DNA of 39,474 nt from a virus (IMGVR_UViG_3300025621_000021:1-39474); one strand, 5' to 3'. Shown: positions 23,792 through 36,552, counted from the first letter of the stretch. Numbers and translations: made by a program. Notes: generated from the letters alone by a model not told the origin.

Positions 23792-23826
23792 TTGCAATTA
23801 GCTAAAAAATACCTTACCTTATATAT
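23792..23826 (+). promoter_or_regulatory. Sigma70 early promoter, leaderless (representative of many in 23.8-36.8 kb)
   Basis: TTGCAA-N17-TACCTT-ATATAT-ATG. Confidence 0.75.
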
Positions 23827-24039: not shown

Positions 24040-24097
24040 TTGCAAATAACCAAAGAAAAAGTTTGCATAAACTCAATAAATAGCTTACATTATACTT

Positions 24098-24376
24098 ATG
24101 AAATTAATACTAGAAGATTACGAACAAATTAACGATGATGCCTTTGAGGGTACTTTTTACTATGGAGATGATACAGTGATTGCCCAAATTAGTACAGATT
24201 GGCTAATCGACTACGAAGAAAATGATTTTGAAATTCATGCTGTCGTCTTGTCAGTACAACAATATGATAACAACGATCAACCTACTGAATTGACTATAAC
24301 AAATGAAGAAATTGAAAACTTCGTTGAAAATGAGATGCACGAATGGTTTGACGATTATCTCAAGAAAATCGCTTAA
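24098..24376 (+). CDS. Small very acidic early protein
   Basis: 92 aa; TTGCAT-N17-TACATT-N6-ATG. Confidence 0.7.
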   Translation: MKLILEDYEQINDDAFEGTFYYGDDTVIAQISTDWLIDYEENDFEIHAVVLSVQQYDNNDQPTELTITNEEIENFVENEMHEWFDDYLKKIA

Positions 24377-24416
24377 ATAGTTTGACACCACACCTTTAAT
24401 CAATTACCTTGTATAT

Positions 24417-24605
24417 ATGAAAATTAATAACGGAGCAATCTATCACAGTAAGTCAAACAATAAAGCCGTTCGCGTAGTGCGAGCAAATCAAGCCTTAGCC
24501 ATAGCGTATGTCAAACACCACAAACAAGACATTGAGTCAGAAGTTTTCTTTACTGACTTGATGCCCGCAACAATCAAACAAGTAAAACAATATCTAGGCA
24601 AATAA
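24417..24605 (+). CDS. Small early protein, SH3-like beta pattern
   Basis: 62 aa; TTGACA-N17-TACCTT-N6-ATG. Confidence 0.7.
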   Translation: MKINNGAIYHSKSNNKAVRVVRANQALAIAYVKHHKQDIESEVFFTDLMPATIKQVKQYLGK

Positions 24606-24671
24606 ATATGCTAATAATTTATATAGTAACCTCAATAATCATTGGTCTAGCTTATACAAACAAATAACAAC

Positions 24672-24980
24672 ATGAGAAAAGTAACACAACAAATTAAACA
24701 AGCCTTCAATCAAGGCAAATCTTTAAAGGTAGGCAATACAAGGACAGACGGGCAGACCGTTTGGCTACATGGCAACGCAATTGTCAAGCGTGACCCTGAC
24801 GGCTTGGTCAGATGGTCGCTTGCAGGATGGAACACGCCCACCACACGCGAACGCGTCAATGGTATAGCGAATGCAGATGTTTGCCAATTCAAATTCGAGC
24901 CTGTACTAAATGGTCAAGTGATTGACTCATCCGATTGGTTCGCATCGCCTAATAAGTTGCCCGATCCTCTAGTATTCTAA
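24672..24980 (+). CDS. Hypothetical phage protein
   Basis: 102 aa, WLHGNAIV..AGWNTPTTRERVNGI; followed by terminator. Confidence 0.75.
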   Translation: MRKVTQQIKQAFNQGKSLKVGNTRTDGQTVWLHGNAIVKRDPDGLVRWSLAGWNTPTTRERVNGIANADVCQFKFEPVLNGQVIDSSDWFASPNKLPDPLVF

Positions 24981-25006
24981 GCTCTCACATAGTTGACCTA
25001 TACAAC

Positions 25007-25030
25007 AGCCCACTATGTGGGCTTTTTTGT
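25007..25030 (+). terminator. Rho-independent terminator
   Basis: AGCCCAC-tat-GTGGGCT followed by T tract. Confidence 0.8.
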
Positions 25031-25093
25031 GTCCTATCCTATAGTGGTATAGTGCAATAAATAAGTTGGCACGATATATGAACATTACTTTCA

Positions 25094-25160
25094 TAAGTCG
25101 TTGAATACCAAGGGTTTACGGCGGCCATGCCCGCGTAAGTCGTTGGTATTCAACGACTTA
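25094..25160 (+). repeat. 67-bp double-palindrome element R1
   Basis: TAAGTCGTTG aatac CAAGGGTTTA c GGCGGCCATGCCCGC g TAAGTCGTTG gtatt CAACGACTTA. Confidence 0.95.
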
Positions 25161-25235
25161 TGCAATAAACAAAATAAATGAAAATAAATCGCCAAATAGC
25201 TTGACATTACGCACATATGCCCCTATGTTATATAT

Positions 25236-25406
25236 ATGATAACAATTACATTAAACAAGAACTTCACCAAATGGCTCAACATTACTATGTTCGGCAAGCT
25301 AATAGATAACGCTACAAATTCAGCTAATGCGATGCAAATTGCTAGCAGGCTACAAAGACAACACAAGCAGGCAACAGGCGAAAAATTAGTGATTATATCA
25401 CGATAA
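25236..25406 (+). CDS. Small protein (56 aa), paralog of 28189-28362
   Basis: Own translation MITITLNKNFTKWLNITMFGKLIDNATNSANAMQIASRLQRQHKQATGEKLVIISR; TTGACA-N17-TATGTT-N6-ATG. Confidence 0.75.
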   Translation: MITITLNKNFTKWLNITMFGKLIDNATNSANAMQIASRLQRQHKQATGEKLVIISR

Positions 25407-25444
25407 CGCTTGACACCACCCACCCAATAGATTACCTTATATAT

Positions 25445-25639
25445 ATGAACGAAAAACAAAGACTACAAGAAATTATCGACAATAACCTCGAAGCAGCTAA
25501 TAATGGGTCAGGCTCGGCTATGATGCAATGCGTAGCCGCTCAAGCAGACCTTGATAGGATAGCACAGGCAGAGGCTAACGAGCTAGAGGCTTATATAGCA
25601 CACACACCACTACCTACCCCCCTTAACATAGTAGACTAA
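25445..25639 (+). CDS. Small protein, near-identical paralog of 26987-27181
   Basis: 64 aa MNEKQRLQEII..; leaderless promoter. Confidence 0.8.
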   Translation: MNEKQRLQEIIDNNLEAANNGSGSAMMQCVAAQADLDRIAQAEANELEAYIAHTPLPTPLNIVD

Positions 25640-25669
25640 TACAATGGCATGGTAGTGCTTAATACCCCC

Positions 25670-25736
25670 TAAGTCGTTGACTATCAGGCACTTACGGCGG
25701 CCCGGCCGGCATAAGCCGTTGAATAACAACAACTTA
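25670..25736 (+). repeat. 67-bp element R2
   Basis: TAAGTCGTTG actat CAGGCACTTA c GGCGGCCCGGCCGGC a TAAGCCGTTG aataa CAACAACTTA. Confidence 0.95.
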
Positions 25737-25863
25737 CGGCATAATTGACACAAGTTCCGTGCCAACTTCCCAAGAAAACCCCAAGAGAATAGTGCATCAA
25801 CATAGTTGAAAGGTAAGTGAGAAAAAGCTTGTGTTTTGCCGGCTTTACCATTACATTGTATAT

Positions 25864-26091
25864 ATGAACATAATAGAACAAACAAAATACGAATTAGATT
25901 TGGATCTCGACCTTGGCTTGGCATTAGCTGAGGCAGAAGGCGACTTGAACCACTTGGCTCGCGAGTCAAATTCATCCGATTGGCAAGGCTCAATCACGCA
26001 GGGCATAACAATTCTTGACGCGTTGAACGCAGTACAAAAAGCAAGAAAAGCTTTCCAAGAAATAAAGCAAAATAATAGCCGGAAAGCTTGA
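25864..26091 (+). CDS. Small helical protein
   Basis: ATG 25864 follows TTGTGT-N17-TACATT-N6; track start 25831 lies inside the promoter. Confidence 0.7.
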   Translation: MNIIEQTKYELDLDLDLGLALAEAEGDLNHLARESNSSDWQGSITQGITILDALNAVQKARKAFQEIKQNNSRKA

Positions 26092-26122
26092 CATTAGGCG
26101 TATATGCCCTTATGTTATATAT

Positions 26123-26278
26123 ATGGAAATTAAGATTAAACCCCTCTGCACTTGGTCAAATGTCGTATTCGATTTATACATCGGAAACAATTACTCCGGA
26201 TCATTCGATTCTTTTAAGGAAGCTCAAAGCTATGGGCTTAAATTGACAAGCTCTTTTCTTTTACTAGAAAATAACTGA
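26123..26278 (+). CDS. Small protein (51 aa)
   Basis: Own translation MEIKIKPLCTWSNVVFDLYIGNNYSGSFDSFKEAQSYG..; promoter nearly identical to that of 25236. Confidence 0.7.
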   Translation: MEIKIKPLCTWSNVVFDLYIGNNYSGSFDSFKEAQSYGLKLTSSFLLLENN

Positions 26279-26284
26279 AATAAT

Positions 26285-26434
26285 ATGCTAGATAACAAAA
26301 TACAGAAATTCATTCAAGACAATGGTCTTGTTCGCATTCAAGCCAGCCCAATGTCCGAGGCTTTTGATCTTTGGGAATGTCCCGGCGGTCATGTTTGGAC
26401 TTTTGACATGATCATCGACTCAGCCAAGAAATAA
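26285..26434 (+). CDS. Small protein (49 aa)
   Basis: Own translation MLDNKIQKFIQDNGLVRIQASPMSEAFDLWECPGGHVWTFDMIIDSAKK; ends 12 nt before R3. Confidence 0.65.
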   Translation: MLDNKIQKFIQDNGLVRIQASPMSEAFDLWECPGGHVWTFDMIIDSAKK

Positions 26435-26446
26435 CCCAAAAACCCC

Positions 26447-26513
26447 TAAGTCGTTGAATACCAAGGGTTTACGGCGGCCAGGCCCGCGTAAGTCGTTGTA
26501 TACCAACGACTTA
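26447..26513 (+). repeat. 67-bp element R3
   Basis: TAAGTCGTTG aatac CAAGGGTTTA c GGCGGCCAGGCCCGC g TAAGTCGTTG tatac CAACGACTTA. Confidence 0.95.
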
Positions 26514-26587
26514 TGACAAAGTAAAATAAATGCAAAATAATCAATATATCGCTTGACTTTAGCCACTTCATGCACTAGATTGTATAT

Positions 26588-26938
26588 ATGAAATCATTAT
26601 ATAATACAGATACAAAAGAATTCACTTTTAACTTTATCATGTGCATCGAAGGCAAAGCCTATCGAGTCGAGGCTATAGCTTGCGAGGACGACATAATGCT
26701 TAGCGAGCAATATCGCCCTGAATACATAGATGTTTACATGGCTAAATTGACAAACGAAAAAACAAACGAATTGACAGAGTCAAATGTCTACCAAAATAAA
26801 GATCTTTTAAAAGTAGTAAGCGACAAGCTTACGGAAAGGCTAATTACTAACGCTAGTAAAACTTGGTTCGTTACTGATGCACCAAGATTATTCCTTGAAC
26901 AATTCGATAATAGCCTCGAAATAATGTTTAATAAATAA
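26588..26938 (+). CDS. Hypothetical early protein
   Basis: 116 aa; TTGACT-N17-TAGATT-N6-ATG. Confidence 0.75.
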   Translation: MKSLYNTDTKEFTFNFIMCIEGKAYRVEAIACEDDIMLSEQYRPEYIDVYMAKLTNEKTNELTESNVYQNKDLLKVVSDKLTERLITNASKTWFVTDAPRLFLEQFDNSLEIMFNK

Positions 26939-26986
26939 TTCCCTAAATAGCTTGACAATAACTCAATAATCCTTTACCTTATATAT

Positions 26987-27181
26987 GTGAACGAAAAACA
27001 AAGACTACAAGAAATAATCAACGATAACCTCGAAGCAGCTAATAACGGATCTGGTTCAGCTATGATGCAGTGCGTGGCGGCTCAAGCCGACCTTGACAGA
27101 ATAGCACAGGCAGAGCGTAGCGAGTTAGAGGCTTACATCGCCCACACTCCATTGCCTGACCCCATTATCTTGGTTGATTAA
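26987..27181 (+). CDS. Small protein, paralog of 25445-25639
   Basis: 64 aa, GTG start, TTGACA-N17-TACCTT-N6. Confidence 0.8.
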   Translation: MNEKQRLQEIINDNLEAANNGSGSAMMQCVAAQADLDRIAQAERSELEAYIAHTPLPDPIILVD

Positions 27182-27192
27182 ACAAAATCCCC

Positions 27193-27259
27193 TAACTCGT
27201 TGATTATCAACGGGTTACGGCGGCCCGGCCCGCGTAAGTCGTTGATATACAATGACTTA
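27193..27259 (+). repeat. 67-bp element R4
   Basis: TAACTCGTTG attat CAACGGGTTA c GGCGGCCCGGCCCGC g TAAGTCGTTG atata CAATGACTTA. Confidence 0.95.
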
Positions 27260-27323
27260 TGGAAAGATAAAAAAAAGTGAAACTTTTTCTTGACTTTGGC
27301 CCAGAATAAGGCTATATTAGGGT

Positions 27324-27467
27324 ATGAATAAAAATACTACATCTCACAAAAATACTAACGCTGACAAAAAAGTCAACATCTGCCCCGCACTAAATCAAAT
27401 TTTCTCAGTACACGGAAAATCTCTAAACCAGCAGTTGGTCGCAATAACTGCGATTAAGAAAAGTTAA
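27324..27467 (+). CDS. Small protein (47 aa), single-gene cassette between R4 and R5
   Basis: Own translation MNKNTTSHKNTNADKKVNICPALNQIFSVHGKSLNQQLVAITAIKKS; TTGACT-N17-TATATT-N5-ATG. Confidence 0.65.
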   Translation: MNKNTTSHKNTNADKKVNICPALNQIFSVHGKSLNQQLVAITAIKKS

Positions 27468-27479
27468 CCTTAAATCCCA

Positions 27480-27546
27480 TAAGTCGTTGGTAACCAATGG
27501 GTTACAGCGGCCCGGCCCGCGTAAGTCGTTGATATACAATGACTTA
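27480..27546 (+). repeat. 67-bp element R5
   Basis: TAAGTCGTTG gtaac CAATGGGTTA c AGCGGCCCGGCCCGC g TAAGTCGTTG atata CAATGACTTA. Confidence 0.95.
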
Positions 27547-27609
27547 TGGAAAGATAAAAAAAGTGAAACTTTTTCTTGACTTTGGCCCAGAATAAGGCTA
27601 TATTAGGGT

Positions 27610-27786
27610 ATGATTAAAATTAACGATGCAGTATCCACCCCATTTTTCAAAGTGGGACAAGTCAACGAGATAGAGGTCAACTCTAAAGGTGTCGAGATGG
27701 CTAGAGTCAGAGCCATGGGTTCTGATAAAACCAAATGGTTTAAGCTTGACAGCCTCACCCTACTATGGCACGCCTCTAACTTCTAA
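27610..27786 (+). CDS. Small SH3/KOW-like protein (58 aa), single-gene cassette between R5 and R6
   Basis: Own translation MIKINDAVSTPFFKVGQVNEIEVNSKGVEMARVRAMGSDKTKWFKLDSLTLLWHASNF; same promoter as 27324. Confidence 0.7.
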   Translation: MIKINDAVSTPFFKVGQVNEIEVNSKGVEMARVRAMGSDKTKWFKLDSLTLLWHASNF

Positions 27787-27791
27787 TCCCA

Positions 27792-27900
27792 TAAGTCGTT
27801 GGTAACCAATGGGTTACGGCGGCCCGGCCCGCGTAAGTCGTTGAGTATCAAGTACTTAGGTGGGTTAGGCCCGCCTAAGTCGTTGACTACCAACAAGTTA
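27792..27900 (+). repeat. Triple-arm element R6 (67 bp plus a further 42-bp core-arm unit)
   Basis: Arms start at 27792, 27834 and 27876; cores GGCGGCCCGGCCCGC and GTGGGTTAGGCCCGC. Confidence 0.95.
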
Positions 27901-27964
27901 GGGGATTAAAAATTATTATTTACTATTTATCTATTTGCTATTTATCTATTTGCTATTTGTAGAT

Positions 27965-28192
27965 TTAGTATTTGTCGAGCGCCTCTAAATCTTCTAATAA
28001 AACATATAGCTTGCCGAATGCTCCTTGCGCTTGTTTGGTCATATCTTTAAAGCGCCCACTTTCTAAGTTTTTACTTACGCAGTCGGCACTTAGCATATAT
28101 TCGCCTTTTCTTGGTCTTTCGGTTGTTGGCACTTCCATCATGGCAAATTGACTGCCCCCTCCAATAGTTGTGGCAATAAAAAAAGAACTCAT
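27965..28192 (-). CDS. Hypothetical protein
   Basis: 75 aa, ATGA-coupled to upstream gene. Confidence 0.65.
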   Translation of the reverse strand: MSSFFIATTIGGGSQFAMMEVPTTERPRKGEYMLSADCVSKNLESGRFKDMTKQAQGAFGKLYVLLEDLEALDKY

Positions 28193-28362
28193 ATTGGTCT
28201 AGCCTCTCCTTCTATGTTTATGTAATGTAGATTTCTCTTTTTTGCTAATGACTCTGCTAACTCTATGGCTTTTGCCTCGCTAGTTAATTCGTCAATAAAT
28301 TTTCCAAAAGAAAAAACTTGAATCCAATTAGTAAAATTTTTGTTTCGTCTAACGCTTATCAT
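28189..28362 (-). CDS. Small protein (57 aa), paralog of 25236-25406
   Basis: Own translation MISVRRNKNFTNWIQVFSFGKFIDELTSEAKAIELAESLAKKRNLHYINIEGEARPI. Confidence 0.7.
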   Translation of the reverse strand: MISVRRNKNFTNWIQVFSFGKFIDELTSEAKAIELAESLAKKRNLHYINIEGEARPI

Positions 28363-28445
28363 TATGTTTTAATTGTTTGAAATAATATCTTTGTGCATCA
28401 TATAAAATACAACGATCCAAGGCAAGAATAAAAGTATGTCGTAGC

Positions 28446-28700
28446 TCATTTGTAGACTCCTTTCATTTCGTCAGACACTCCGATGTCTTGATCCTCTTCG
28501 TCAATGTCTTCAGCAACATCAGAATGAAGAAATTGTTTTTCGTCTTCGATGTCAGCATTGGCGACATTAAAAAGTCCATTCTCACCGATAACTTCCTCGG
28601 TTTTAACTTCTTCAACGAAGTTGTCAACCAATGCGTTGGATGTACCTTGGCTTGCAAGGACTGCGTTTTTAATAAGGTTAATTCTTTCTTGTTCTTCCAT
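28446..28700 (-). CDS. Very acidic small protein
   Basis: 84 aa; TTGACA-N17-TAGATT-N5-ATG. Confidence 0.7.
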   Translation of the reverse strand: MEEQERINLIKNAVLASQGTSNALVDNFVEEVKTEEVIGENGLFNVANADIEDEKQFLHSDVAEDIDEEDQDIGVSDEMKGVYK

Positions 28701-28721
28701 AATATATAATCTAGTTTAATT

Positions 28722-29003
28722 TTAGTTTTTTGTCAAGCTGTAAAGAAGTTTTTCTCTAGCTTTCTTTTTTTTGTTAAGATGACTCATGGCTAAATGCTTA
28801 AACATTTCCCTTTCTTTATTCGAGTATGCATTAGTTAGTTCCATCGCTTCGTCTAATTCAAAGCCCGAGTCTATTAGTTTTTTAATTGAAAATTTATCAT
28901 CTTGTATTGATTTTCTTTTTATCTCTGCCCATTCAAAAGCTTTAGATTTTATTCTTTTTGTGTTTTTTTCTGCTTCTTGTTTGATTGCTAATAAGTTATT
29001 CAT
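28722..29003 (-). CDS. Basic helical protein
   Basis: 93 aa; promoter TTGCTA-N17-TACTAT between gene and R7. Confidence 0.65.
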   Translation of the reverse strand: MNNLLAIKQEAEKNTKRIKSKAFEWAEIKRKSIQDDKFSIKKLIDSGFELDEAMELTNAYSNKEREMFKHLAMSHLNKKKKAREKLLYSLTKN

Positions 29004-29103
29004 ATCTTCATATATAGTTTAGTTTTGTTGATTAGATAAGTACATAGTAAGCCAGTTTTCTAGTTATAGCAAGAAAAAAGATCATTAGTTTTGCATATTG
29101 TTC

Positions 29104-29170
29104 TAAGTCGTTGAGCATCAAGGACTTCTGCGGGCCGGGCCGCCGTAAGTCATTGACTTACAGTGACTTA
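29104..29170 (-). repeat. 67-bp element R7 (reverse core)
   Basis: TAAGTCGTTG agcat CAAGGACTTC t GCGGGCCGGGCCGCC g TAAGTCATTG actta CAGTGACTTA. Confidence 0.95.
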
Positions 29171-29175
29171 GGGAA

Positions 29176-29397
29176 TTATTCTTCCATCATCCACTCGTCA
29201 AGAGCATAAGTGTCTAAATCCTCATCCTTATAACTCGCACCGTCGGGTGTTTCTGTTTGGTCGCAAGCTTCTAGCTCATTCGCTAAATCCTTATAGTGAA
29301 CAAATCTTCGAGCCATCTTATAAAGCCCTTCGTCGTTAGCTAACCATAAAGCCACATTCCAAGTCGCCCAATTCTTCCATCCGTTGTATCCTTCCAT
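29176..29397 (-). CDS. Small phage protein with YNGWxNWxTWNVALW motif
   Basis: 73 aa; recurrent early-region phage motif; stop 5 nt from R7. Confidence 0.75.
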   Translation of the reverse strand: MEGYNGWKNWATWNVALWLANDEGLYKMARRFVHYKDLANELEACDQTETPDGASYKDEDLDTYALDEWMMEE

Positions 29398-29401
29398 AGT
29401 C

Positions 29402-29593
29402 TTACCCTTCTATTAGTTGCTTAAATTGATCGTAAACTTTTTGCTTGCTACCTTTTAGGTTAAACTCGTCCTTAACGATGGAGTAGCAACTCCTACCCCT
29501 TGACATCCTCAAGCCATTAAGCTCAAGCCTTAGCCCCCGAAGTAATGTTTTAAATCTGAATGCTTCAATTTGTGTTGGTGTGTTTAGTATCAT
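29402..29593 (-). CDS. Small basic phage protein
   Basis: ATG 29593 after TTGACA-N17-TATATT-N6; LRLELNGLRMSRGRSCYSIVKDEFNLKGSKQKV. Confidence 0.7.
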   Translation of the reverse strand: MILNTPTQIEAFRFKTLLRGLRLELNGLRMSRGRSCYSIVKDEFNLKGSKQKVYDQFKQLIEG

Positions 29594-29607
29594 ATCTTTA
29601 ATATAGT

Positions 29608-29793
29608 TTAGTTGTTGTCTTGTGTCAAGTCTTCTTTTTCTAATTGTACTCTGATGTATAGGTCGCCATTCTCGTCTTCGTCCATGTCGGCATAATTGCA
29701 ATCTTTAAAATCTTTAATGTCGTATCCTCTAATATTATCAATAGAGAAAGAGCATAAATCATTTCCTCGGTAATCTTCAATCTGTATTATCAT
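29608..29793 (-). CDS. Small acidic protein
   Basis: 61 aa ORF. Confidence 0.6.
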   Translation of the reverse strand: MIIQIEDYRGNDLCSFSIDNIRGYDIKDFKDCNYADMDEDENGDLYIRVQLEKEDLTQDNN

Positions 29794-29804
29794 ATCTTTA
29801 TGTG

Positions 29805-30050
29805 TTAAACGATTTCTTTTACCATTTTCATTAGTCCCTTTACTTCGTCTAGGTTTTGTTGAAGCAAGTTAAGTTGTGCAAGTATGCCTTTGTAACCGAC
29901 ATATCCTCCATTCATGTGACCCTGCCAAGTGTCGCCCACTTTCTTGAATGAAACATCCCAACCACAATGATAATCATATGCTTTTAGGATGCCGTTTGGC
30001 AAGAGTTCAAATGTTAGTTCTTTTCCGTTTGTTTTGTCTTTTAATGTCAT
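29805..30050 (-). CDS. Hypothetical protein
   Basis: 81 aa; TTGCGT-N17-TAGTTT-N6-ATG. Confidence 0.7.
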   Translation of the reverse strand: MTLKDKTNGKELTFELLPNGILKAYDYHCGWDVSFKKVGDTWQGHMNGGYVGYKGILAQLNLLQQNLDEVKGLMKMVKEIV

Positions 30051-30116
30051 ATAAACAAACTAAGGTATAAACCTAATTAACGCAAGAAAAAAGTTAAGTT
30101 TTTTTGCATATTGTTC

Positions 30117-30183
30117 TAAGTCGTTGAGCATCAAGGACTTCTGCGGGCCGGGCCGCCCTAAGTCGTTGAGTATCAATGACTTA
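30117..30183 (-). repeat. 67-bp element R8 (reverse core)
   Basis: TAAGTCGTTG agcat CAAGGACTTC t GCGGGCCGGGCCGCC c TAAGTCGTTG agtat CAATGACTTA. Confidence 0.95.
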
Positions 30184-30235
30184 CAGGGGTAAAAATAAAG
30201 CTTGCAATTAGCCCCAAATAGAGGTATATTAAGAT

Positions 30236-30565
30236 ATGAAATTAATAATAGACGACATCGACCCTAGCGAACATACATTCTTCGCATCAATCTCAAACGA
30301 CGACTGCCAAAAAATGATCTTGAGATGCTCCTTCTACACAGACGAGCAGGAAGAATTGTATGGAGATCAAGTTTCAGCGATTCATGTGGTCGGCTACTTC
30401 AATTCAGTCGAGGAGATTGTAGCTTACGGAGATCATGGATTTCCGATGACCCCGCCTGTTGAGCTAGTAAAATCAGCTATGGATCAGCTTAAGGATGTTG
30501 AACTAGAAATTGAGTCTCGAGAATGTGAAGTCGATTACTCACCTCAATACTACGATCTAGTTTAA
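30236..30565 (+). CDS. Acidic protein, single-gene cassette between inverted R8 and R9
   Basis: 109 aa; TTGCAA-N17-TATATT-N5-ATG. Confidence 0.75.
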   Translation: MKLIIDDIDPSEHTFFASISNDDCQKMILRCSFYTDEQEELYGDQVSAIHVVGYFNSVEEIVAYGDHGFPMTPPVELVKSAMDQLKDVELEIESRECEVDYSPQYYDLV

Positions 30566-30571
30566 ACCCCC

Positions 30572-30638
30572 TAAGTCGTTGACAACCAATGGGTTGCGGC
30601 GGCCCGGCCCGCCTAAGTCGTTGACTATCAATCACTTA
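30572..30638 (+). repeat. 67-bp element R9
   Basis: TAAGTCGTTG acaac CAATGGGTTG c GGCGGCCCGGCCCGC c TAAGTCGTTG actat CAATCACTTA. Confidence 0.95.
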
Positions 30639-30756
30639 GGAGAACTTCTTTCAACTCTGTGACTGACCACCCCGAAAGCTGAGAAAGCTCCCGGAGTGTC
30701 ATTGATATATTTGAGTCAAATGTATTTGTTACTTTTTCTTTTGTCCATTTATTCAT
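30628..30756 (-). CDS. Small HTH-like protein (42 aa), stop codon inside R9
   Basis: Own translation MNKWTKEKVTNTFDSNISMTLRELSQLSGWSVTELKEVLLSD; ATGA overlap with the Gp88-like gene. Confidence 0.65.
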   Translation of the reverse strand: MNKWTKEKVTNTFDSNISMTLRELSQLSGWSVTELKEVLLSD

Positions 30757-31490
30757 GAGTTTGTCCCTTCTACTACGAATCCTGTTTCATCCTTCTTTGC
30801 CAAACCTTTTTCGATAAGACCAACAACAACACCTTTCTTGTCAAGAAAACGCAAGTCAGTTTCATCACCATTGACGACCTCAAAGCCTTTCCATGTTTTG
30901 GGTAATTGATTGCGAAATACAACGGCAACATTGCCACCCATTAAAAGAACCATCTCGCACTTTTTGTCGTTATTCTCTGAGCGAGAAAAAGTTAAATGAT
31001 AATTAGAGGGAAATTTTGCCTCGCCCTTGATAAAAGGTTTGCCGAGAAAAGAACACATTCTTTTGAATGATTTGGTATAATCATAAAATTGAGTTGATGA
31101 GTGCTTTTCAAGAATAGTCGCACCATCCTCATTGATCTCATTTTCCCACATGATGTCGCTTGTAAGATTAGGACGAAATACAGCTTTCATGCTTTTCTTT
31201 TGTGCCGACTTAATTGAAGAAGTAATTTCTTTGGATAATTTCTCAAAAAACTCCATTTTCTTCTCAAAGAACAATTTTGTTTTGTTGATGCGTGAATCTT
31301 GAACAGATCCCATTTGACCACGACCTGCCGTATTCAAACAAGACATTGTGCAACCTTTAGAACGCCATTGGCAAGTTTCGTAGCCTGAAAGATTTGCTGG
31401 AGCTAAATGAATTCCTTTTGTGATGTAACCGAGTTTTTCTCCTTTGAGAATTTTTTGATTACCTGATGTGAGAAGTGTTGTTTTAATCAT
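30753..31490 (-). CDS. Gp88-like (radical-SAM-related) phage protein
   Basis: TCQWRSKGCTMSCLNTAGRG Cys triad, FRPNLTSDI, FYDYTK, NYHLTFS, GDETDLRFLD; leaderless promoter. Confidence 0.75.
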   Translation of the reverse strand: MIKTTLLTSGNQKILKGEKLGYITKGIHLAPANLSGYETCQWRSKGCTMSCLNTAGRGQMGSVQDSRINKTKLFFEKKMEFFEKLSKEITSSIKSAQKKSMKAVFRPNLTSDIMWENEINEDGATILEKHSSTQFYDYTKSFKRMCSFLGKPFIKGEAKFPSNYHLTFSRSENNDKKCEMVLLMGGNVAVVFRNQLPKTWKGFEVVNGDETDLRFLDKKGVVVGLIEKGLAKKDETGFVVEGTNS

Positions 31491-31555
31491 AACTACATAC
31501 TAAGGCACTTTTTCAATTAACACAAGAAAAAAATCAATTAAAATGAAAATAGTTC

Positions 31556-31622
31556 TAACTCGTTGAATACCAAGCACTTGCGCGGGCCTGGCCGCCATAA
31601 GTCGTTGATTATCAACAACTTA
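31556..31622 (-). repeat. 67-bp element R10 (reverse core)
   Basis: TAACTCGTTG aatac CAAGCACTTG c GCGGGCCTGGCCGCC a TAAGTCGTTG attat CAACAACTTA. Confidence 0.95.
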
Positions 31623-31734
31623 GATAAAGAAAATAAAATGAAAATAATAGCACTTTTTTCTTGCCTAAACCCAATAAGTAGACTACTATATACTTATAAA
31701 CCAAATAATAACACTACTAAAAAAAAGGAAAAAT

Positions 31735-32043
31735 ATGACACACACAGTAAACAAAGAAACATTAGAAAATGCAGTTCAAATGAAACAAGGAATCGTAGTA
31801 CACGATTTAGAAACCCTCAATCGTTTGGTCGGTGATGCGATTCTTCAGGTCGCCTCCCAAGATACAATGGGATCAATCAATGCTAAATCTGCGGTAGAGA
31901 AAGTTGCCAAAGATCAATTCGAAAAAGATTACGGAAGTCGCCAGATCTCATGGGTAGATTATGCTACCAAATTCTCCGAGAATCTTGATGGCAATCCTTT
32001 TCTTCTTGACGAGATTCTCGCTAATAGATTAGAAAGGTCTTAA
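31735..32043 (+). CDS. Hypothetical protein, single-gene cassette between inverted R10 and R11
   Basis: 102 aa; promoter TTGCCT..TACTAT from 31661; AAGGA upstream of ATG. Confidence 0.75.
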   Translation: MTHTVNKETLENAVQMKQGIVVHDLETLNRLVGDAILQVASQDTMGSINAKSAVEKVAKDQFEKDYGSRQISWVDYATKFSENLDGNPFLLDEILANRLERS

Positions 32044-32056
32044 TCAAAAAACCTCG

Positions 32057-32123
32057 TAACTCGTTGATTATCAACGGGTTACGGCGGCCAGGCCCGCGCA
32101 AGTCGTTGACCATCAACAACTTA
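32057..32123 (+). repeat. 67-bp element R11
   Basis: TAACTCGTTG attat CAACGGGTTA c GGCGGCCAGGCCCGC g CAAGTCGTTG accat CAACAACTTA. Confidence 0.95.
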
Positions 32124-32141
32124 GGTAATTAAGGTAGAAAT

Positions 32142-32175
32142 AAAAAAGCCCCTCCCCGAATACTCAGAGAGGGGC
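32142..32175 (-). terminator. Rho-independent terminator after DUF932-like gene
   Basis: Minus strand GCCCCTC..GAGGGGC followed by TTTTTT. Confidence 0.75.
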
Positions 32176-32188
32176 AAGTAATGACTAT

Positions 32189-33031
32189 TTACGCCAAAAC
32201 TAATTCGGATCCGACTTTTTCTTTTTCGATGCCGACAAAAGGATCAAGCACCGAATGAAGAGCATATGACCTGTTCATGAGGTGAGCAGGTTGGGAGCTT
32301 AGTTGTAAGTTGCCCTTATATACTTCTGTAAAAGCATTATAAAGTGAATTTACATTTCTATCCCAAAATGAAGGGTGATCGCTAGATTCCCATTGATTCA
32401 ATACATCGGGGATTCTTTGCAGGTTGATCGCCTTAGCTTGATAAGCCTTGACGATTAAATCGTTTGCCTCAGAGTTAGTGATCTCTTTCTCTTGGTAAGA
32501 CTTGACCCGATTGTCTTGAGTGTTCCACATTGTAAAGAGTTGACCCAATCCGCTTGAGATTTTTTGACTAATCACATCAAGCAACTTATCAAGTTCGCCC
32601 ATGTGCTTGCGAGCAACGACAACCTCGTTAGAAAAGATTAAGTTGTCGCACACAAAGGGAGCATCACCTGCACACATACCCGCAGCGAATGCTTTATCGT
32701 GAGCGTTACGCAACCCGATAATGGTTGCCCTTTCCTCTTGACCCTTTCTTGAGCCGTGGCTCACTTGAAACAGCCCAAAGTATCTTGCTCCATCTTTAGC
32801 TAGATTATGGCATTCGCTTTGCACTTGGAAGTGCCTAGAGGACAATTCACTTCTGAATCTATTAATCATGTCAATATGACTGATAGGTTGATGAGATACA
32901 GAGCGAGAGCCGTCTTTATTGAGCTTTTCCCTGTATGTTGCTAATGGAGTATTAACGGCTTTAACTTGTGAGAGATTGACGACATCATGCTCGCCTCCGC
33001 AGATTGTTAGGTTGGATTTTCTTGTTATCAT
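32189..33031 (-). CDS. DUF932-like protein
   Basis: HQPISH, DGARYFGLF, IGLRNAHDK, FVCDNLIF, SLYNAFTE motifs; leaderless promoter. Confidence 0.75.
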   Translation of the reverse strand: MITRKSNLTICGGEHDVVNLSQVKAVNTPLATYREKLNKDGSRSVSHQPISHIDMINRFRSELSSRHFQVQSECHNLAKDGARYFGLFQVSHGSRKGQEERATIIGLRNAHDKAFAAGMCAGDAPFVCDNLIFSNEVVVARKHMGELDKLLDVISQKISSGLGQLFTMWNTQDNRVKSYQEKEITNSEANDLIVKAYQAKAINLQRIPDVLNQWESSDHPSFWDRNVNSLYNAFTEVYKGNLQLSSQPAHLMNRSYALHSVLDPFVGIEKEKVGSELVLA

Positions 33032-33069
33032 AGTATTATAGTAGTGTATTTTTTTTAATTTGTCAAGGA

Positions 33070-33300
33070 TTAATTTTTATAGTTTTGGTCTAATCCTGTT
33101 TTGTTTAGTATTTCGTATGCAGTTGCTTTTTCAGCTATAGCTTTGAGTGTTTCGCCTATCATGTCAAGGACTTTGAAGTCATCAATGTTAAGTTCTTTTT
33201 GCATTGGTTCGATGACCATCTCAAACAAGACGCTTTGCATTGCTTCCATGACTTCGTCGGGAGATGGTTGACTCTTTGCGTAGGATTCGTTTATATTCAT
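33070..33300 (-). CDS. Hypothetical protein
   Basis: 76 aa ORF. Confidence 0.65.
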   Translation of the reverse strand: MNINESYAKSQPSPDEVMEAMQSVLFEMVIEPMQKELNIDDFKVLDMIGETLKAIAEKATAYEILNKTGLDQNYKN

Positions 33301-33301
33301 T

Positions 33302-33466
33302 TTAGTCTTCTTTTAGTTGTATGTCGTAATGCTCGCCATCTTTAAGCACCATAGATGCAAAGTTTTTTAAACCTAGCTTTGCTTGCTCTAATGTATAGGC
33401 TTTAGTTCTTGCGATCTCTACCCACGCCCCTGATGATGTGTTTGCCATTAATTGATATATATTCAT
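33302..33466 (-). CDS. Small protein (54 aa)
   Basis: Own translation MNIYQLMANTSSGAWVEIARTKAYTLEQAKLGLKNFASMVLKDGEHYDIQLKED; ATGA overlap. Confidence 0.6.
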   Translation of the reverse strand: MNIYQLMANTSSGAWVEIARTKAYTLEQAKLGLKNFASMVLKDGEHYDIQLKED

Positions 33467-33579
33467 GCTAATTTTGTTTTATGTTTTAGTTTTCTATGCA
33501 AGACTTTATTCTTCATCTTGAATGGTCGAGCCTTAGTGAAAAGGATTTGTTTTCTTATCTTTATCTCTCTCGCTTTCAT
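33463..33579 (-). CDS. Small basic peptide (38 aa) with RKxKHK C-terminus
   Basis: ATG 33579 after TTGCGT-N17-TACTAT-N6; track start 33666 lies inside R12. Confidence 0.65.
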   Translation of the reverse strand: MKAREIKIRKQILFTKARPFKMKNKVLHRKLKHKTKLA

Positions 33580-33644
33580 ATATACATAGTAAGCTAATTT
33601 AATAATTAACGCAAGAAAAAAGTGAATTAAAACAAAGATAGTTG

Positions 33645-33711
33645 TAAGTCGTTGAATATCAGGCACTTGCGCGGGCCAGGCCGCCGTAAGTCGTTGATAG
33701 TTAAGTAGTTA
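33645..33711 (-). repeat. 67-bp element R12 (reverse core)
   Basis: TAAGTCGTTG aatat CAGGCACTTG c GCGGGCCAGGCCGCC g TAAGTCGTTG atagt TAAGTAGTTA. Confidence 0.93.
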
Positions 33712-33712
33712 C

Positions 33713-33744
33713 AAAAAACCCCCCTTTCGGATTCGAAAGGAGGG
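33713..33744 (-). terminator. Rho-independent terminator abutting R12
   Basis: Minus strand CCCTCCTTTCG-aatc-CGAAAGGGGG followed by T tract. Confidence 0.75.
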
Positions 33745-33771
33745 ATAATGATATTAAGCAAAGTCTATTTG

Positions 33772-33978
33772 CTAATTTCGCTTTTCTAATCGGTAAAGCT
33801 CAAAAAGGTCATTGCGATGACTTTCATAAGCCTGTTGAGACTTGTCGCCCCGCATCTCCTTGAGGGCCAAGCTATACCCTTGTGACCTAAGACTTGACCG
33901 AAGCCAATTAGCTTTTTTGTTTGCCAAGTCGTTGGCGTCGCTTAAATTTCTATCCTTTAATAATTCTGATGATGACAT
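33772..33978 (-). CDS. Hypothetical protein
   Basis: 68 aa ORF. Confidence 0.6.
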   Translation of the reverse strand: MSSSELLKDRNLSDANDLANKKANWLRSSLRSQGYSLALKEMRGDKSQQAYESHRNDLFELYRLEKRN

Positions 33979-33982
33979 AATA

Positions 33983-34219
33983 TTATACTCCTTTGGTTAG
34001 CGATACGATACGATCATAACGGAAGGAACGAACTCCTCCTTTGTTGTGGCAGAAACTTCTGAAGCCCGCAACTTTGATGGCTTGGGCAACATTGCCAAAC
34101 TCATTCTTGTGTTGTGGTTTTTCGATGGTGTACATCTCGGTTCTTCCGTCCGCAGTTGTATAGACTACGCTATAAAGTGGGTTGAAGATTCTTTTGATTG
34201 TGTTGATTAGTTTTAGCAT
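33983..34219 (-). CDS. WYL/Sm-like small domain protein
   Basis: YTTADGRTE..GFRSFCHNKGGVRSFRYDRIVSL resembles the WYL-domain R.FR.DRI signature; ATG 34219 preferred. Confidence 0.55.
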   Translation of the reverse strand: MLKLINTIKRIFNPLYSVVYTTADGRTEMYTIEKPQHKNEFGNVAQAIKVAGFRSFCHNKGGVRSFRYDRIVSLTKGV

Positions 34220-34437
34220 GATGCTTTTTCCTCCGTTTTTGTGTTGTAGTAGTTGTAAGTCTCGCAAGCCTCATCGGCTGATTCAAAACTTACTGCGATT
34301 AAATCTCTTTGGATGTCGTGACAGAACCAAGGTGTTTCTGACTCTTCAAAAAACAATTCCCATTGCTCTGTGTCTTCGTTGTAATTAGGAAGGTCAAGGG
34401 GTCTGCCTTCACATACTGATTCTATATAATTGTTCAT
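34213..34437 (-). CDS. Small acidic protein
   Basis: 74 aa ORF. Confidence 0.65.
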   Translation of the reverse strand: MNNYIESVCEGRPLDLPNYNEDTEQWELFFEESETPWFCHDIQRDLIAVSFESADEACETYNYYNTKTEEKASC

Positions 34438-34454
34438 GGTTTTATTCTCTCAAA

Positions 34455-34667
34455 TTAAGAGTCGTGTGTCAACTCTTTTAATATTTCTTTTTGTACTCTT
34501 GCTTTTTTATTTTGGTCGTCTACTATCTTTGCTAAACGAACTAGCTCGGCAGTTACCTCTTTCTTTGATTGGGCAGGTGCTTTTGGATTCTTGAGGACTT
34601 CTACTAATGGAGGAATAATGGATGCCCAAGTTGGTGTGATATCTATTGTTTTTTCTGTTTCTTTCAT
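34455..34667 (-). CDS. Small protein (MKETEKTIDITPTW..)
   Basis: ATG 34667 after TTGACA-N17-TATATT-N6. Confidence 0.7.
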   Translation of the reverse strand: MKETEKTIDITPTWASIIPPLVEVLKNPKAPAQSKKEVTAELVRLAKIVDDQNKKARVQKEILKELTHDS

Positions 34668-34964
34668 AACTATAATATAGGTTAGTTTGTTGTGTGTGTC
34701 AAGCGTTCTTATAAAGAATCTTCTTCCCATTTGTTTTTAATTTTCATCTAAATTAAAGTGATCCACATTGCAGTGAAATAATTCTTCATCTTTGTCCATA
34801 ATAGCCACAAGATCATCGTAAACATAACTCATAAGATCGTCAAGATCCATGTCGTCTACAATTTTTTGTGCTACTGCCATCACATTCTCGTCTGTATAAT
34901 TCATTATTGTTTTTTCTGTTTCTTTCATAAGTATAATATAGGTTAGTTTGTTGTGTGTGTCAAG
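34644..34964. repeat. 60-bp direct repeat (34644-34703 and 34905-34964) covering promoter plus first 8 codons
   Basis: tattgttttttctgtttctttcataa[c/g]tataatataggttagtttgttgtgtgtgtcaag, one mismatch. Confidence 0.9.
34737..34928 (-). CDS. Small very acidic protein (MKETEKTIMNY..)
   Basis: 63 aa with duplicated promoter. Confidence 0.7.
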   Translation of the reverse strand: MKETEKTIMNYTDENVMAVAQKIVDDMDLDDLMSYVYDDLVAIMDKDEELFHCNVDHFNLDEN

Positions 34965-34976
34965 GGTTTTGTTAAT

Positions 34977-35198
34977 TCAGCAAGGGATTGGTGAGTCTTC
35001 GTCTGTTACGATGGTTACTCCGAAATGAGATGCTAGCTCTGAAATCATTGTATCCTTATTGAAATAATTATATGCATGGGTTAAAAGTTGCTCTTGCTCT
35101 TCTCCTGTATGCCCATCTCTGAGTTCGTCATATATCTCAAAGATGTTCATGTTCCAATTCCAGCCTTCTACTCTTGATTCTATCTGTGATTTTGTCAT
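34977..35198 (-). CDS. Hypothetical protein
   Basis: 73 aa ORF. Confidence 0.65.
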   Translation of the reverse strand: MTKSQIESRVEGWNWNMNIFEIYDELRDGHTGEEQEQLLTHAYNYFNKDTMISELASHFGVTIVTDEDSPIPC

Positions 35199-35217
35199 AT
35201 TTTTTTTGTTTGTTTGT

Positions 35218-35451
35218 TTATAGTTGTGCTGATTGGAAAGATGATTCTATCCTAAGCTCATTTTGTAATGAGGTCAAGCTCAAAACAATATCCTCTAAGA
35301 TTTCTTCTGCGGACTGAATAGTCGCACCAAGTGGAAACTTGTCGGGGTGTTGTTCGTGTCGATCCAAACATACTTTGGACATCGGATCGGCATATGCCAT
35401 TTCTCCTCTGACTATGTCTAGAATGGTTTCTCTAATTTTTGCTTGTGTCAT
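35218..35451 (-). CDS. Hypothetical protein
   Basis: 77 aa ORF. Confidence 0.65.
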   Translation of the reverse strand: MTQAKIRETILDIVRGEMAYADPMSKVCLDRHEQHPDKFPLGATIQSAEEILEDIVLSLTSLQNELRIESSFQSAQL

Positions 35452-35453
35452 AA

Positions 35454-35855
35454 TTATCTATTGTACGCAGTTACTTGGTTGTGTTGTAGTTTAACTTGAT
35501 CTGCATAGTATACAAAACTTTCGTCCTTCTTGTCAACAAAAGTCTCATACTTATATGGATTATATGTTACCTCTGTCGCGGGGAGATCGGTGTCTACATT
35601 CTCTGCGTCTTGAAGATAGCCCTTGACAAATGCGTGAACATTCTTACGCTTTTCACGGAGAACTTTTTCTCTACCCTTAACATCAACATGAAAATAACAA
35701 TCCCACATTCCAATTGAATGATCCTTTGGGATGTGAGCTTTAACTAATCCGTGTTGCTTTACTGACCAGCAGTCTTTGTGAAGATTCTTGTATACATAAA
35801 CAGGTCGGTTAGACTTGAGGATGTATCGTGGGTCTTGTTGGTTTCTCTTTATCAT
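35454..35855 (-). CDS. Conserved phage protein (VYKNLHK..WSV..RKNVHAFV..YNPYK)
   Basis: Recurrent phage motif set; ATG 35855 after TTGCGT-N17-TACTAT-N6. Confidence 0.75.
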   Translation of the reverse strand: MIKRNQQDPRYILKSNRPVYVYKNLHKDCWSVKQHGLVKAHIPKDHSIGMWDCYFHVDVKGREKVLREKRKNVHAFVKGYLQDAENVDTDLPATEVTYNPYKYETFVDKKDESFVYYADQVKLQHNQVTAYNR

Positions 35856-35920
35856 ATATACATAGTAGACCATCTTTTTAGTTAACGCAAGAAAAAAAAC
35901 AATTAAAACGAAAATAGTCA

Positions 35921-35987
35921 TAACTGCTTGAACATCAACACTTTGCGCGGGCCCGGCCGCCGCAACCCCTTGGTTATCAACGACTTA
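35921..35987 (-). repeat. 67-bp element R13 (reverse core, most diverged)
   Basis: TAACTGCTTG aacat CAACACTTTG c GCGGGCCCGGCCGCC g CAACCCCTTG gttat CAACGACTTA. Confidence 0.88.
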
Positions 35988-36225
35988 TGTAATTTTTTAA
36001 TTTTGTAGCTTAATTTTTAATTAAATTTTATTTTATATTGTAGTTTTTTATATTGTAGTTTATATATTTATAGTATTTGTATTATATATATTTGTAGTTG
36101 TTGTATTTGTAAGGGGCCTATTTGTAAACGGTAGAGTTGTAATTGGGCGGAGCCCGCATTATTCAGACTTCACCAGGATTAATGCCAAAAAAAGAGTCAA
36201 AGCAATATAAGCTAACATCATATTC

Positions 36226-36516
36226 TTAAGCACGTATGGATTCAATCGCTTCCTTCACTGAGAGGGGCACGAATGGAGACTGAGCCATGTCGTCAAGTGC
36301 TCTAGACGGAATAGAAACATCACGAAGATAGTCTCCGTCCGCCTCCTTCTCTGACATAATAGTCTTAGCCATGTAAGCACCGGCTACCTCTCGGGAATTA
36401 CCGAAACGCATAAGCACAGGAATGTTAGGCACCTCCTTCTCAAGCACCTCAAGGTCGTTGGAATCGATAAAGCCGAATTGTTCTTTAGATATAATTTTTA
36501 GTAATGTTTTAATCAT
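36226..36516 (-). CDS. Hypothetical protein
   Basis: 96 aa; TTGACA-N17-TATATT-N6-ATG. Confidence 0.7.
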   Translation of the reverse strand: MIKTLLKIISKEQFGFIDSNDLEVLEKEVPNIPVLMRFGNSREVAGAYMAKTIMSEKEADGDYLRDVSIPSRALDDMAQSPFVPLSVKEAIESIRA

Positions 36517-36552
36517 AAGTATAATATATGTGTTTTTGTTGGTTGTGTCAAA

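What the first reader, a model, noticed from the sequence alone, without database searches (positions are those of the whole stretch)
25094..35987. Array of 13 indel-free 67-bp double-palindrome elements bounding small gene cassettes: candidate phage cassette-shuffling system
Seen: 13 copies (starts 25094, 25670, 26447, 27193, 27480, 27792, 29104, 30117, 30572, 31556, 32057, 33645, 35921), all 10-5-10 palindrome + 17-bp spacer + 10-5-10 palindrome, consensus TAAGTCGTTG-N5-CAACGACTTA-N-GGCGGCC-N-GGCCCGC-N-TAAGTCGTTG-N5-CAACGACTTA. Lengths are invariant while the N5 loops and central base vary. The whole unit is a nested imperfect palindrome (R1 has a perfect 20-bp outer inverted repeat), and the asymmetric GC core gives it direction. 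Copies lie 5-13 nt from stop codons (R3, R4, R5, R6, R7, R9, R11) and separate blocks of one to several small genes that carry their own promoters. I found none in the 23-kb structural region. Established analogies: integron attC sites, shufflon recombination sites, T4-type PeSL promoter stem-loop cassettes, mycobacteriophage stoperators/ESAS; I do not recognise this sequence as any of them. Inference: recombination or protein-binding sites that modularise the early host-takeover/anti-defence repertoire. No recombinase is visible in this window.
Basis: partly seen in the sequence, partly recalled or inferred. Interest (0 to 1): 0.92.

Follow-up and report, generated by a model that had tools for sequence, protein, structure and literature searches.

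The report
Paired IHF-type sites bounding phage cassettes
Thirteen rigid 67-base repeats between the early genes of an uncultured marine phage are pairs of mirror-symmetric sites that match the binding consensus of the bacterial DNA-bending protein IHF and sit in step with the DNA helix just upstream of strong promoters, so they likely fold the DNA to tune early gene expression, while related phages have gained, lost and swapped gene cassettes at them, likely by ordinary homologous recombination rather than a dedicated shuffling enzyme.

Summary
Observation confirmed: 13 gap-free 67-bp elements (27 25-mers; copy 6 has a third), all in the early-gene island. They read as double-stranded protein sites, not hairpins. 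The invariant bases are AA..TTG-N5-CAR..TT, 25 of 27 25-mers have a half within one mismatch of the IHF consensus WATCARNNNNTTR, and there is no covariation. Gaps to adjacent sigma-70 promoters cluster at 18-20, 29-31 and 39-41 bp (period about 10.5). Near-identical relatives gain and lose whole cassettes at the elements. However, crossover points differ, promoter-only junctions rearrange almost as often (p=0.27), and near-complete relatives have no tyrosine, serine or HUH recombinase, while 3 of 5 carry a RecA-like gene. The shuffling therefore looks PeSL-like (homologous), not like a shufflon. This scan has met the element on other DNA about 40 times; I found no paper describing it. New here: the cultured Stenotrophomonas phage DLP6 carries the same word in pairs upstream of sigma-70 promoters, also helically phased, probably the motif published as 'phage promoters in groups of two'. 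That makes the idea bench-testable. The binder and its effect are untested.

The parts
25094..25160 (.). R1, paired 25-mers, core orientation F; promoter 40 bp to the right
25670..25736 (.). R2, F; promoter 92 bp to the right
26447..26513 (.). R3, F; 12 nt after a stop codon; promoter 39 bp to the right
27193..27259 (.). R4, F; promoter 30 bp to the right
27480..27546 (.). R5, F; promoter 29 bp to the right; element plus promoter nearly duplicate R4's
27792..27900 (.). R6, F, with a third 25-mer at 27876-27900; between convergent genes, no adjacent promoter
29104..29170 (.). R7, core orientation R; leftward promoter-like site 31 bp away (-35 at 29072, read by eye)
30117..30183 (.). R8, R; divergent promoters 31 bp left and 18 bp right
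30236..30565 (+). 109-aa cassette gene between R8 and R9; absent (one element left) in L021, L310, L315, L338, L345; at other positions in L024, L153/L154 and inverted in L001
30572..30638 (.). R9, F; convergent junction, no adjacent promoter
31556..31622 (.). R10, R; divergent promoters 30 bp left and 38 bp right (latter read by eye, -35 at 31661)
31735..32043 (+). 102-aa cassette gene between R10 and R11; absent in L310, L329, L338, L345; the empty site in L310 and L338 is R10 joined to R11's right flank within the last ~13 bp of the element
32057..32123 (.). R11, F; convergent junction; separate intrinsic terminator at 32148-32175 (- strand)
33645..33711 (.). R12, R; leftward promoter 30 bp away; separate intrinsic terminator at 33719-33744 (- strand)
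35921..35987 (.). R13, R (most degenerate copy); leftward promoter 30 bp away
23792..36551 (.). Early-gene island: small genes under repeated sigma-70-type promoters (TTGACA-17-TA...T) with ATG 4-7 nt after the -10 box (predicted leaderless mRNAs); 23 such sites listed, 10 within 92 bp of an element

Best explanation
Each 25-bp palindrome is likely one symmetrised binding site for a host IHF/HU-family DNA-bending protein, and the two sites around a GC-rich spacer would kink the DNA at a fixed helical face just upstream of the phage's strong sigma-70 early promoters, likely tuning or insulating those transcription units. Shown: the consensus match, the lack of hairpin covariation, the paired layout, the helical register with the promoters, and cassette gain and loss at the elements. 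Inferred: the identity of the binder, the bend, and the sign of the effect on transcription. The reshuffling is likely a by-product: 13 similar elements and many similar promoters offer short homology for RecA/UvsX-type recombination, as for PeSLs of T4-type phages.
For: (1) Invariant columns equal the IHF consensus WATCARNNNNTTR (PMC8421141, passages), including A/G at both R positions. In the window, 43 of 54 half-sites and 25 of 27 25-mers (best half) are within one mismatch, against a background of 69 of 46,000 positions. In 404 distinct 25-mers of the 42-bp class, 377 are within one mismatch and 368 keep CAR....TT on both halves (partly circular, as sites were picked with a matrix from the window). 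(2) The two halves overlap at the centre with TTG and CAA 5 bp apart; IHF is pseudo-two-fold with kinks 9 bp apart, so I read each 25-mer as one site (inference). (3) Pairing at variable positions is at or near the independence expectation, within arms and between arms. (4) 749 of 784 sites have a partner within 70 bp; spacing peaks at 41-42 and 50; spacers are 85-96% GC at those peaks. (5) Element-to--35 gaps peak at 18-20, 29-31 and 39-41 bp; with one value per downstream gene family, R=0.74 at 10.5 bp for 55 families of the 42-bp class, and 0 of 5000 uniform draws reach it. (6) Independent case: DLP6 (KU682439.2) has 34 exact consensus matches against 5.5 expected, 31 of them in pairs or a triple; for 13 pairs the gaps to the -35 are 11-12, 21-22 and 32 (R=0.96); its host is a gammaproteobacterium, a group with IHF (established knowledge). 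(7) No HU/IHF gene in 0 of 7 virus records, so an IHF-type binder would be the host's. (8) RecA-like gene in 3 of 5 near-complete relatives; G002 also has SSB, RuvB-like and Holliday-resolvase-like genes. (9) IHF sites affect the Mu early promoter Pe (PMC3820752, passages).
Against: No binding or transcription data. The N4 positions are biased (CGAC commonest, also in DLP6), more than the IHF consensus demands, which would fit a specific phage or host regulator. Geometry is not uniform: 42 bp is 4.0 turns, 50 bp about 4.8 turns, and DLP6's 25-bp head-to-tail spacing is shorter than IHF's 35-bp footprint. The 50-bp class shows no significant promoter phasing (14 families, 362 of 5000 null draws exceed it). 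Promoter-facing arms match the consensus slightly worse than other arms (mean mismatches 1.27 against 1.03, p=0.002). Three of 13 elements (R6, R9, R11) have no adjacent promoter, and 13 of 23 leaderless promoter-like sites have no element nearby. The host is only inferred as Verrucomicrobiota, and I could not test whether it has an IHF-type protein. Related contigs are not independent samples.
Confidence: 0.55

Rival explanations
1. The 25-mers are operators of a phage-encoded (or other host) dimeric regulator that represses or activates early promoters, like mycobacteriophage stoperators (recalled); the IHF likeness is coincidental.
For: Dyad symmetry, N4 bias beyond the IHF consensus, helical register with promoters, confinement to phage early islands, and only 9 matching stretches in GTDB genomes, all in MAG contigs.
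Against: The same word occurs in distant phages with different hosts and in different arrangements (inverted overlap here, head-to-tail in DLP6). Invariant and R positions match IHF's exactly. No conserved DNA-binding family was found among the island's genes (one Atlas look-up uninformative), though most early genes are unannotated.
Confidence: 0.2
2. The elements are protein-bound boundaries with no promoter role of their own: roadblocks or anti-silencing barriers that insulate neighbouring strong transcription units or shield the AT-rich early DNA.
For: Three copies lie at convergent junctions without promoters; seven lie 5-13 nt from stop codons; the spacer is nearly pure GC in a ~37% GC region; promoter-facing arms are not better sites.
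Against: A pure barrier would not need a fixed helical face relative to the -35 box. Separate intrinsic terminators lie beside R1, R11 and R12.
Confidence: 0.13
3. A site-specific recombination system (shufflon/integron-like) reorders the cassettes at these sites.
For: Precise cassette gain and loss at the elements in 98-100% identical relatives; cassettes in other positions and orientations; element junctions are the least conserved class, 26 of 160.
Against: Clean crossovers map to non-overlapping intervals (element positions 55-68, 22-42, 34-45, and 68-70, which is outside the element). N5 loops differ between copies. No tyrosine, serine or HUH recombinase in near-complete relatives. Promoter-only junctions are conserved in only 43 of 120 (p=0.27 against elements). 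4.6-kb contigs span R8-R12 in window order in two runs.
Confidence: 0.05
4. The elements act as RNA or single-stranded DNA hairpins (terminators/attenuators as in PeSLs, or attC/REP-like folded substrates).
For: Eight of 12 folded copies beat all 200 shuffles; the central GGCC-N-GGCC shows some excess pairing (0.78-0.87 against 0.61-0.73 expected).
Against: Folds differ between copies and some are no better than shuffles (z -0.94 and +0.54). Arm pairing shows no covariation. None is called as a terminator and none has a U-tract. No Rfam family matches.
Confidence: 0.07

Closest known systems
PeSL (promoter-early stem-loop) cassettes of T4-type phages RB49/phi1, T4/PST, KVP40/nt-1 (PMC2839356: abstract and section 13 read; PMC4122927: passages)
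   Same: Repeated intergenic modules next to sigma-70 early promoters in the plastic small-gene region; gene gain, loss and exchange by homologous recombination between copies.
   Different: PeSLs carry a terminator stem-loop and a Shine-Dalgarno sequence. Here the module is a fixed-length pair of protein-site-like palindromes without covariation, and the mRNAs are predicted leaderless. The PeSL text searched has no mention of IHF. The phage is not T4-type (lambda-like minor tail genes and a Pol III-alpha polymerase in relatives).
IHF binding sites (WATCARNNNNTTR; lambda H', Mu Pe; two IHF sites folding the I-F CRISPR leader) (PMC8421141, PMC3820752, bioRxiv 2020.09.11.293639 and 2023.05.26.542337: passages)
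   Same: Same consensus and R positions; location upstream of a phage early promoter; paired sites that could fold DNA.
   Different: Known sites are asymmetric (A-tract plus consensus) and occur singly or in small sets. Here they are symmetrised, paired around a GC spacer and repeated 13 times in 11 kb. Binding is untested.
PHIRE-predicted 'phage promoters in groups of two' of Stenotrophomonas phage DLP6 (PMC5349666: passages; Fig. 3 logo and supplements not seen)
   Same: The same word AATCAACGACTTA in pairs upstream of sigma-70-type promoters and in helical register with them. Pair positions precede the genes that the paper names (AAY80_060, 092, 113, 121, 131), so they are probably the same motif.
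   Different: DLP6 sites are one-sided, head-to-tail and 25-26 bp apart, with the GC-rich stretch between site and promoter. They were published as promoters, not as IHF-like sites. DLP6 is a T4-like phage with another host.
Integron attC sites and shufflon sfx sites (recalled)
   Same: Repeated sites bounding small gene cassettes whose content varies.
   Different: No recombinase, no fixed crossover point, no conserved fold.

Membership tests
IHF binding site | Consensus WATCARNNNNTTR | tested here: met
   25 of 27 window 25-mers have a half within 1 mismatch, 12 exact; background 69 of 46,000
IHF binding site | Upstream A-tract on the left arm (asymmetric site) | tested here: not met
   The left arm is a mirrored consensus half (TAAGTCGTTG), not an A-tract
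IHF binding site | Specific binding and ~160 degree bending by IHF | not testable with these tools
   needs EMSA, footprint or AFM
IHF binding site | Host encodes an IHF-type protein | not tested
   Host only inferred (Verrucomicrobiota); no host genome handle could be obtained
PeSL cassette | Sigma-70-like early promoter within the repeated module | tested here: met
   10 of 13 elements have an adjacent promoter-like site
PeSL cassette | Terminator-type stem-loop | tested here: not met
   No covariation, variable folds, not called as terminators
PeSL cassette | Gene indels and exchanges at the modules between close relatives | tested here: met
PeSL cassette | Mini-circle formation | tested here: inconclusive
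   Only assembled contigs were available; a few go-back joints, which may come from co-occurring relatives
Site-specific recombination array (attC/shufflon) | Cognate tyrosine, serine or HUH recombinase | tested here: not met
   PF00589 0 of 7 records; PF00239 and PF01797 0 of 5
Site-specific recombination array (attC/shufflon) | One fixed crossover position with an identical overlap | tested here: not met
   Non-overlapping crossover intervals; 17 distinct N5 loops of 26
Known structured RNA / REP | Rfam match or conserved covarying fold; presence in bacterial chromosomes | tested here: not met
   No Rfam hit over the elements; 9 stretches in GTDB, all in MAG contigs; no plasmid match

The most novel reading that the evidence does not exclude
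Large lytic phages of unrelated families build their own chromatin on the early-gene region: arrays of paired, high-affinity sites recruit the host's IHF to fold each early transcription unit into a U-turned domain that switches promoters on and blocks host silencers or DNA-scanning defences, and the same modules double as swap points for host-takeover cassettes.
Probability: 0.2. Interest if true: 0.85.

Novelty: new variant of a known kind. Interest (0 to 1): 0.55.

Why it matters
IHF is known as a helper of temperate phages (lambda integration, Mu). Dense arrays of IHF-type sites phased with early promoters in large lytic phages would add an unrecognised host dependency of the first minutes of infection. 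They would also explain why these hypervariable islands break assemblies and exchange cassettes. The DLP6 copy turns a metagenomic pattern into a bench question and suggests that some published 'phage promoter' motifs are nucleoid-protein sites.

Tried and rejected
Recombinase search: none in the window; none among 80 G001 ORFs (>=95 aa, 68-108 kb left out) or 149 of 168 G002 ORFs (>=110 aa); none in six-frame family searches. A novel or host recombinase is not excluded. Rule 'core orientation follows the left neighbour's strand': holds for 13 of 13 in the window, but empty sites in L021, L310 and L315 have an F core between two minus-strand genes, so I treat it as history, not function. Strict in-phase pairing: rejected as general, since spacing is bimodal at 42 and 50. 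Whole-element hairpin: rejected. Expression: the two RNA-labelled runs were contigs with flat depth and could not show transcription. Lower contig depth over the two variable cassettes in run X15 and a loose end matching the R10-R11 empty site suggest both forms coexist there, but contig depth is weak evidence. Cultured relatives: terminase <=27% identity to any GenBank phage; no phage or plasmid record holds the 67-mer; the DLP6 unit has no near-full-length match in other GenBank phages. Anti-defence function of the cargo: only weak PADLOC hits. The table in PMC6907758 lists the consensus in the H-NS row, apparently swapped with IHF, so I cite PMC8421141.
Full report
OBSERVATION. The 13 elements lie at the stated starts and align without gaps as 25-17-25 bp. 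The arm pattern has 21 matches at up to 3 mismatches against 0.01 expected. A matrix built from the arms finds exactly 27 sites, all in 25094-35987: two per element and a third at 27876. Copies share 41-61 of 67 bases, and the median longest exact match between two copies is 11 bp, the maximum 41. The GC core comes in two orientations (FFFFFFRRFRFRR). The window is a 39,474-bp virus record, with terminase, PhoH, a sigma factor and head genes on the left and small unannotated genes on the right.

THE PHAGE AND THE SPREAD OF THE ELEMENT. 126 viral stretches encode a terminase relative, 59-100% identical among the 80 kept, but no GenBank phage exceeds 27%. Relatives of 138 and 214 kb (G001, G002; terminase 81% and 83%) hold 15 pairs, and 6 pairs plus a single site, confined to one island of 13 kb or less. 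A DUF1501 gene of G002 has named best hits only in Verrucomicrobiota (2 of 120 rows name a taxon; 72-75% identity), so that host group is an inference. The runs that hold the window are marine.

WHAT THE 25-MER IS. The invariant bases are AA....TTG-N5-CAR....TT. Read from the centre, each half is the IHF consensus WATCARNNNNTTR (PMC8421141, passages). In the window, 15 of 54 halves match exactly and 28 have one mismatch, against 69 of 46,000 background positions within one mismatch. Across 815 distinct sites from 297 loci, pairing at each position is at or near what independent columns give. The same holds between the two arms in 253 elements of the 42-bp class and 128 of the 50-bp class; only the central GGCC-N-GGCC shows some excess pairing. 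Folds differ between copies, none is a terminator, and Rfam has no match. This is the signature of a double-stranded protein site. IHF is pseudo-two-fold, kinks DNA at two points 9 bp apart, covers 35 bp and bends about 160 degrees. As the two consensus halves overlap at the centre, I infer one symmetrised site per 25-mer. The column statistics are partly circular because sites were picked with a window-derived matrix.

GEOMETRY. 749 of 784 sites away from locus edges have a partner within 70 bp. Spacing peaks at 41-42 and 50, also among the 247 pairs that match none of my search patterns, and spacers at those peaks are 85-96% GC. In the window the gaps from element edge to the -35 box are 18, 29, 30, 30, 30, 30, 31, 39, 40 and 92, plus 31 and 38 for two promoters read by eye. 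With one value per downstream gene family, the 42-bp class gives R=0.74 at 10.5 bp (55 families; 0 of 5000 uniform draws reach it); the 50-bp class is not significant (14 families; 362 of 5000). Against a simple activator model: three elements have no promoter, 13 of 23 leaderless promoter-like sites have no element, and promoter-facing arms are slightly poorer matches. I took the phasing test as a lead from earlier notes of this scan and ran it on my own loci.

A CULTURED CASE. A paper search for the half-site led to Stenotrophomonas phage DLP6 (PMC5349666, passages), whose authors report 25 PHIRE-predicted 'phage promoters', 22 of them 'in groups of two'. In KU682439.2 I count 34 exact WATCARNNNNTTR matches against 5.5 expected, 31 in pairs or a triple mostly 25-26 bp apart, 24 with CGAC in the N4. 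For the 13 pairs with a sigma-70-type promoter downstream, the gaps are 11, 11, 12, 21, 21, 21, 22 (x5), 32 and 32 (R=0.96 at 10.5). Several pairs precede the genes that the paper names. I did not see the logo, so identity with the PHIRE motif is inferred. The 25-bp spacing is shorter than IHF's footprint, which counts against simultaneous canonical binding there.

SHUFFLING. Maps of 57 loci show real plasticity. The 109-aa cassette between R8 and R9 is missing, with one element left, in L021, L310, L315, L338 and L345, whose neighbouring genes are 89-100% identical; it sits elsewhere in G001 and L153/L154 and is inverted in L001. The 102-aa cassette between R10 and R11 is missing in L310, L329, L338 and L345. 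In L310 the empty site is R10 base for base, followed by R11's right flank. Of 249 distinct elements, 20 had both parents at hand and 7 were explained with at most 3 mismatches; their crossover intervals include element positions 55-68, 22-42, 34-45, 21-45 and 68-70, so there is no common point. In 34 loci from 30 contigs, adjacency was kept at 26 of 160 element junctions, 43 of 120 promoter-only junctions and 84 of 168 junctions with neither (element against promoter-only p=0.27; element against neither p=0.013). Population contigs mostly follow the window's order (4,573-bp contigs over 30128-34700 in 2 of 4 runs), and joints fall both at elements and at promoter repeats. Tyrosine recombinases are absent from 7 of 7 records, serine and HUH recombinases from 5 of 5, and HU/IHF genes from 7 of 7 virus records, whereas 3 of 5 carry a RecA-like gene. 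Records may be incomplete; G001 lacks replication genes among the ORFs scanned, despite its 100% estimate.

MECHANISM. Most likely (0.55) a host IHF/HU-type protein binds both sites and bends the DNA on a set face upstream of the early promoters, tuning or insulating them; IHF sites are known to affect Mu Pe (PMC3820752, passages), and two IHF dimers fold the I-F CRISPR leader (bioRxiv 2023.05.26.542337, passages). Cassette exchange is then short-homology recombination, as for PeSLs (PMC2839356, abstract and section 13; PMC4122927, passages). Rivals: another regulator's operator (0.2), pure boundary (0.13), hairpin (0.07), site-specific shufflon (0.05).

NOVELTY. It works like a PeSL in evolution but fails the stem-loop test, and it reads like an IHF site but lacks the A-tract and has no binding data, so I file it as a new variant of a known kind. 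Searches of the paper library (search listings only, except DLP6) found no description of paired IHF-type sites in phage early islands; most subscription papers are not in that library. This scan has noted the same kind of element about 40 times in at least 39 other genomes; those notes are unchecked and are not counted as support. No note matched DLP6 together with IHF and promoter pairs, and the 8 of 10 DLP6 notes shown concern other features.

Noticed in passing
window 36956-37164 (-): Rfam manA RNA match (82.3 bits, cut-off 55.2) with its own sigma-70-type promoter (-35 at 37263) and a terminator at 36838-36867; conserved in several relatives.
   Followed up: no
window 23792-36551: Most early promoters have ATG 4-7 nt after the -10 box, so the early mRNAs are predicted to be leaderless; the promoter repeats are themselves rearrangement points.
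   Followed up: partly
window 25445-25639 and 26987-27181: Duplicated 64-aa gene with promoter (79% DNA identity); 25236-25406 and 28189-28362 are also paralogous.
   Followed up: partly
window 29072-29040 (-) and 33614 (-): Promoter-like sites left of R7 and R12 are not followed by a clear ORF for some 70-150 bp; short peptides or small RNAs are possible.
   Followed up: no
L021:6100, L029:4852, L031:3055 and others: Many close relatives have a single 25-mer at the left edge of the island (about window 23690), which the window lacks; in L031 a further degenerate half-site lies upstream of an element.
   Followed up: no
window 30753-31490, 32189-33031, 35454-35843: GP88 (PF17338), DUF932 (PF06067) and L5 gp82-like (PF25735) genes are the stable backbone of the island in most relatives.
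   Followed up: no
window 5750-6240 (+): Five 96/108-bp repeats inside a 250-aa head-fibre-like gene.
   Followed up: no
G002 (L133, L134, L137): Very large set of glycosyltransferase, sulfotransferase and sugar-epimerase genes, plus DUF1501, ClpB-like, HSP20, APS kinase and an ECF-type sigma factor.
   Followed up: no
L298-L306: GTDB MAGs of unrelated taxa hold contigs with these elements, one of 211 kb matching the early island; probably mis-binned phage DNA.
   Followed up: partly
KU682439.2 (L357-L359): DLP6's paired AATCAACGACTTA words, probably the published 'phage promoters', lie upstream of ordinary TTTACT-17-TATAAT promoters that are not annotated in the record.
   Followed up: yes
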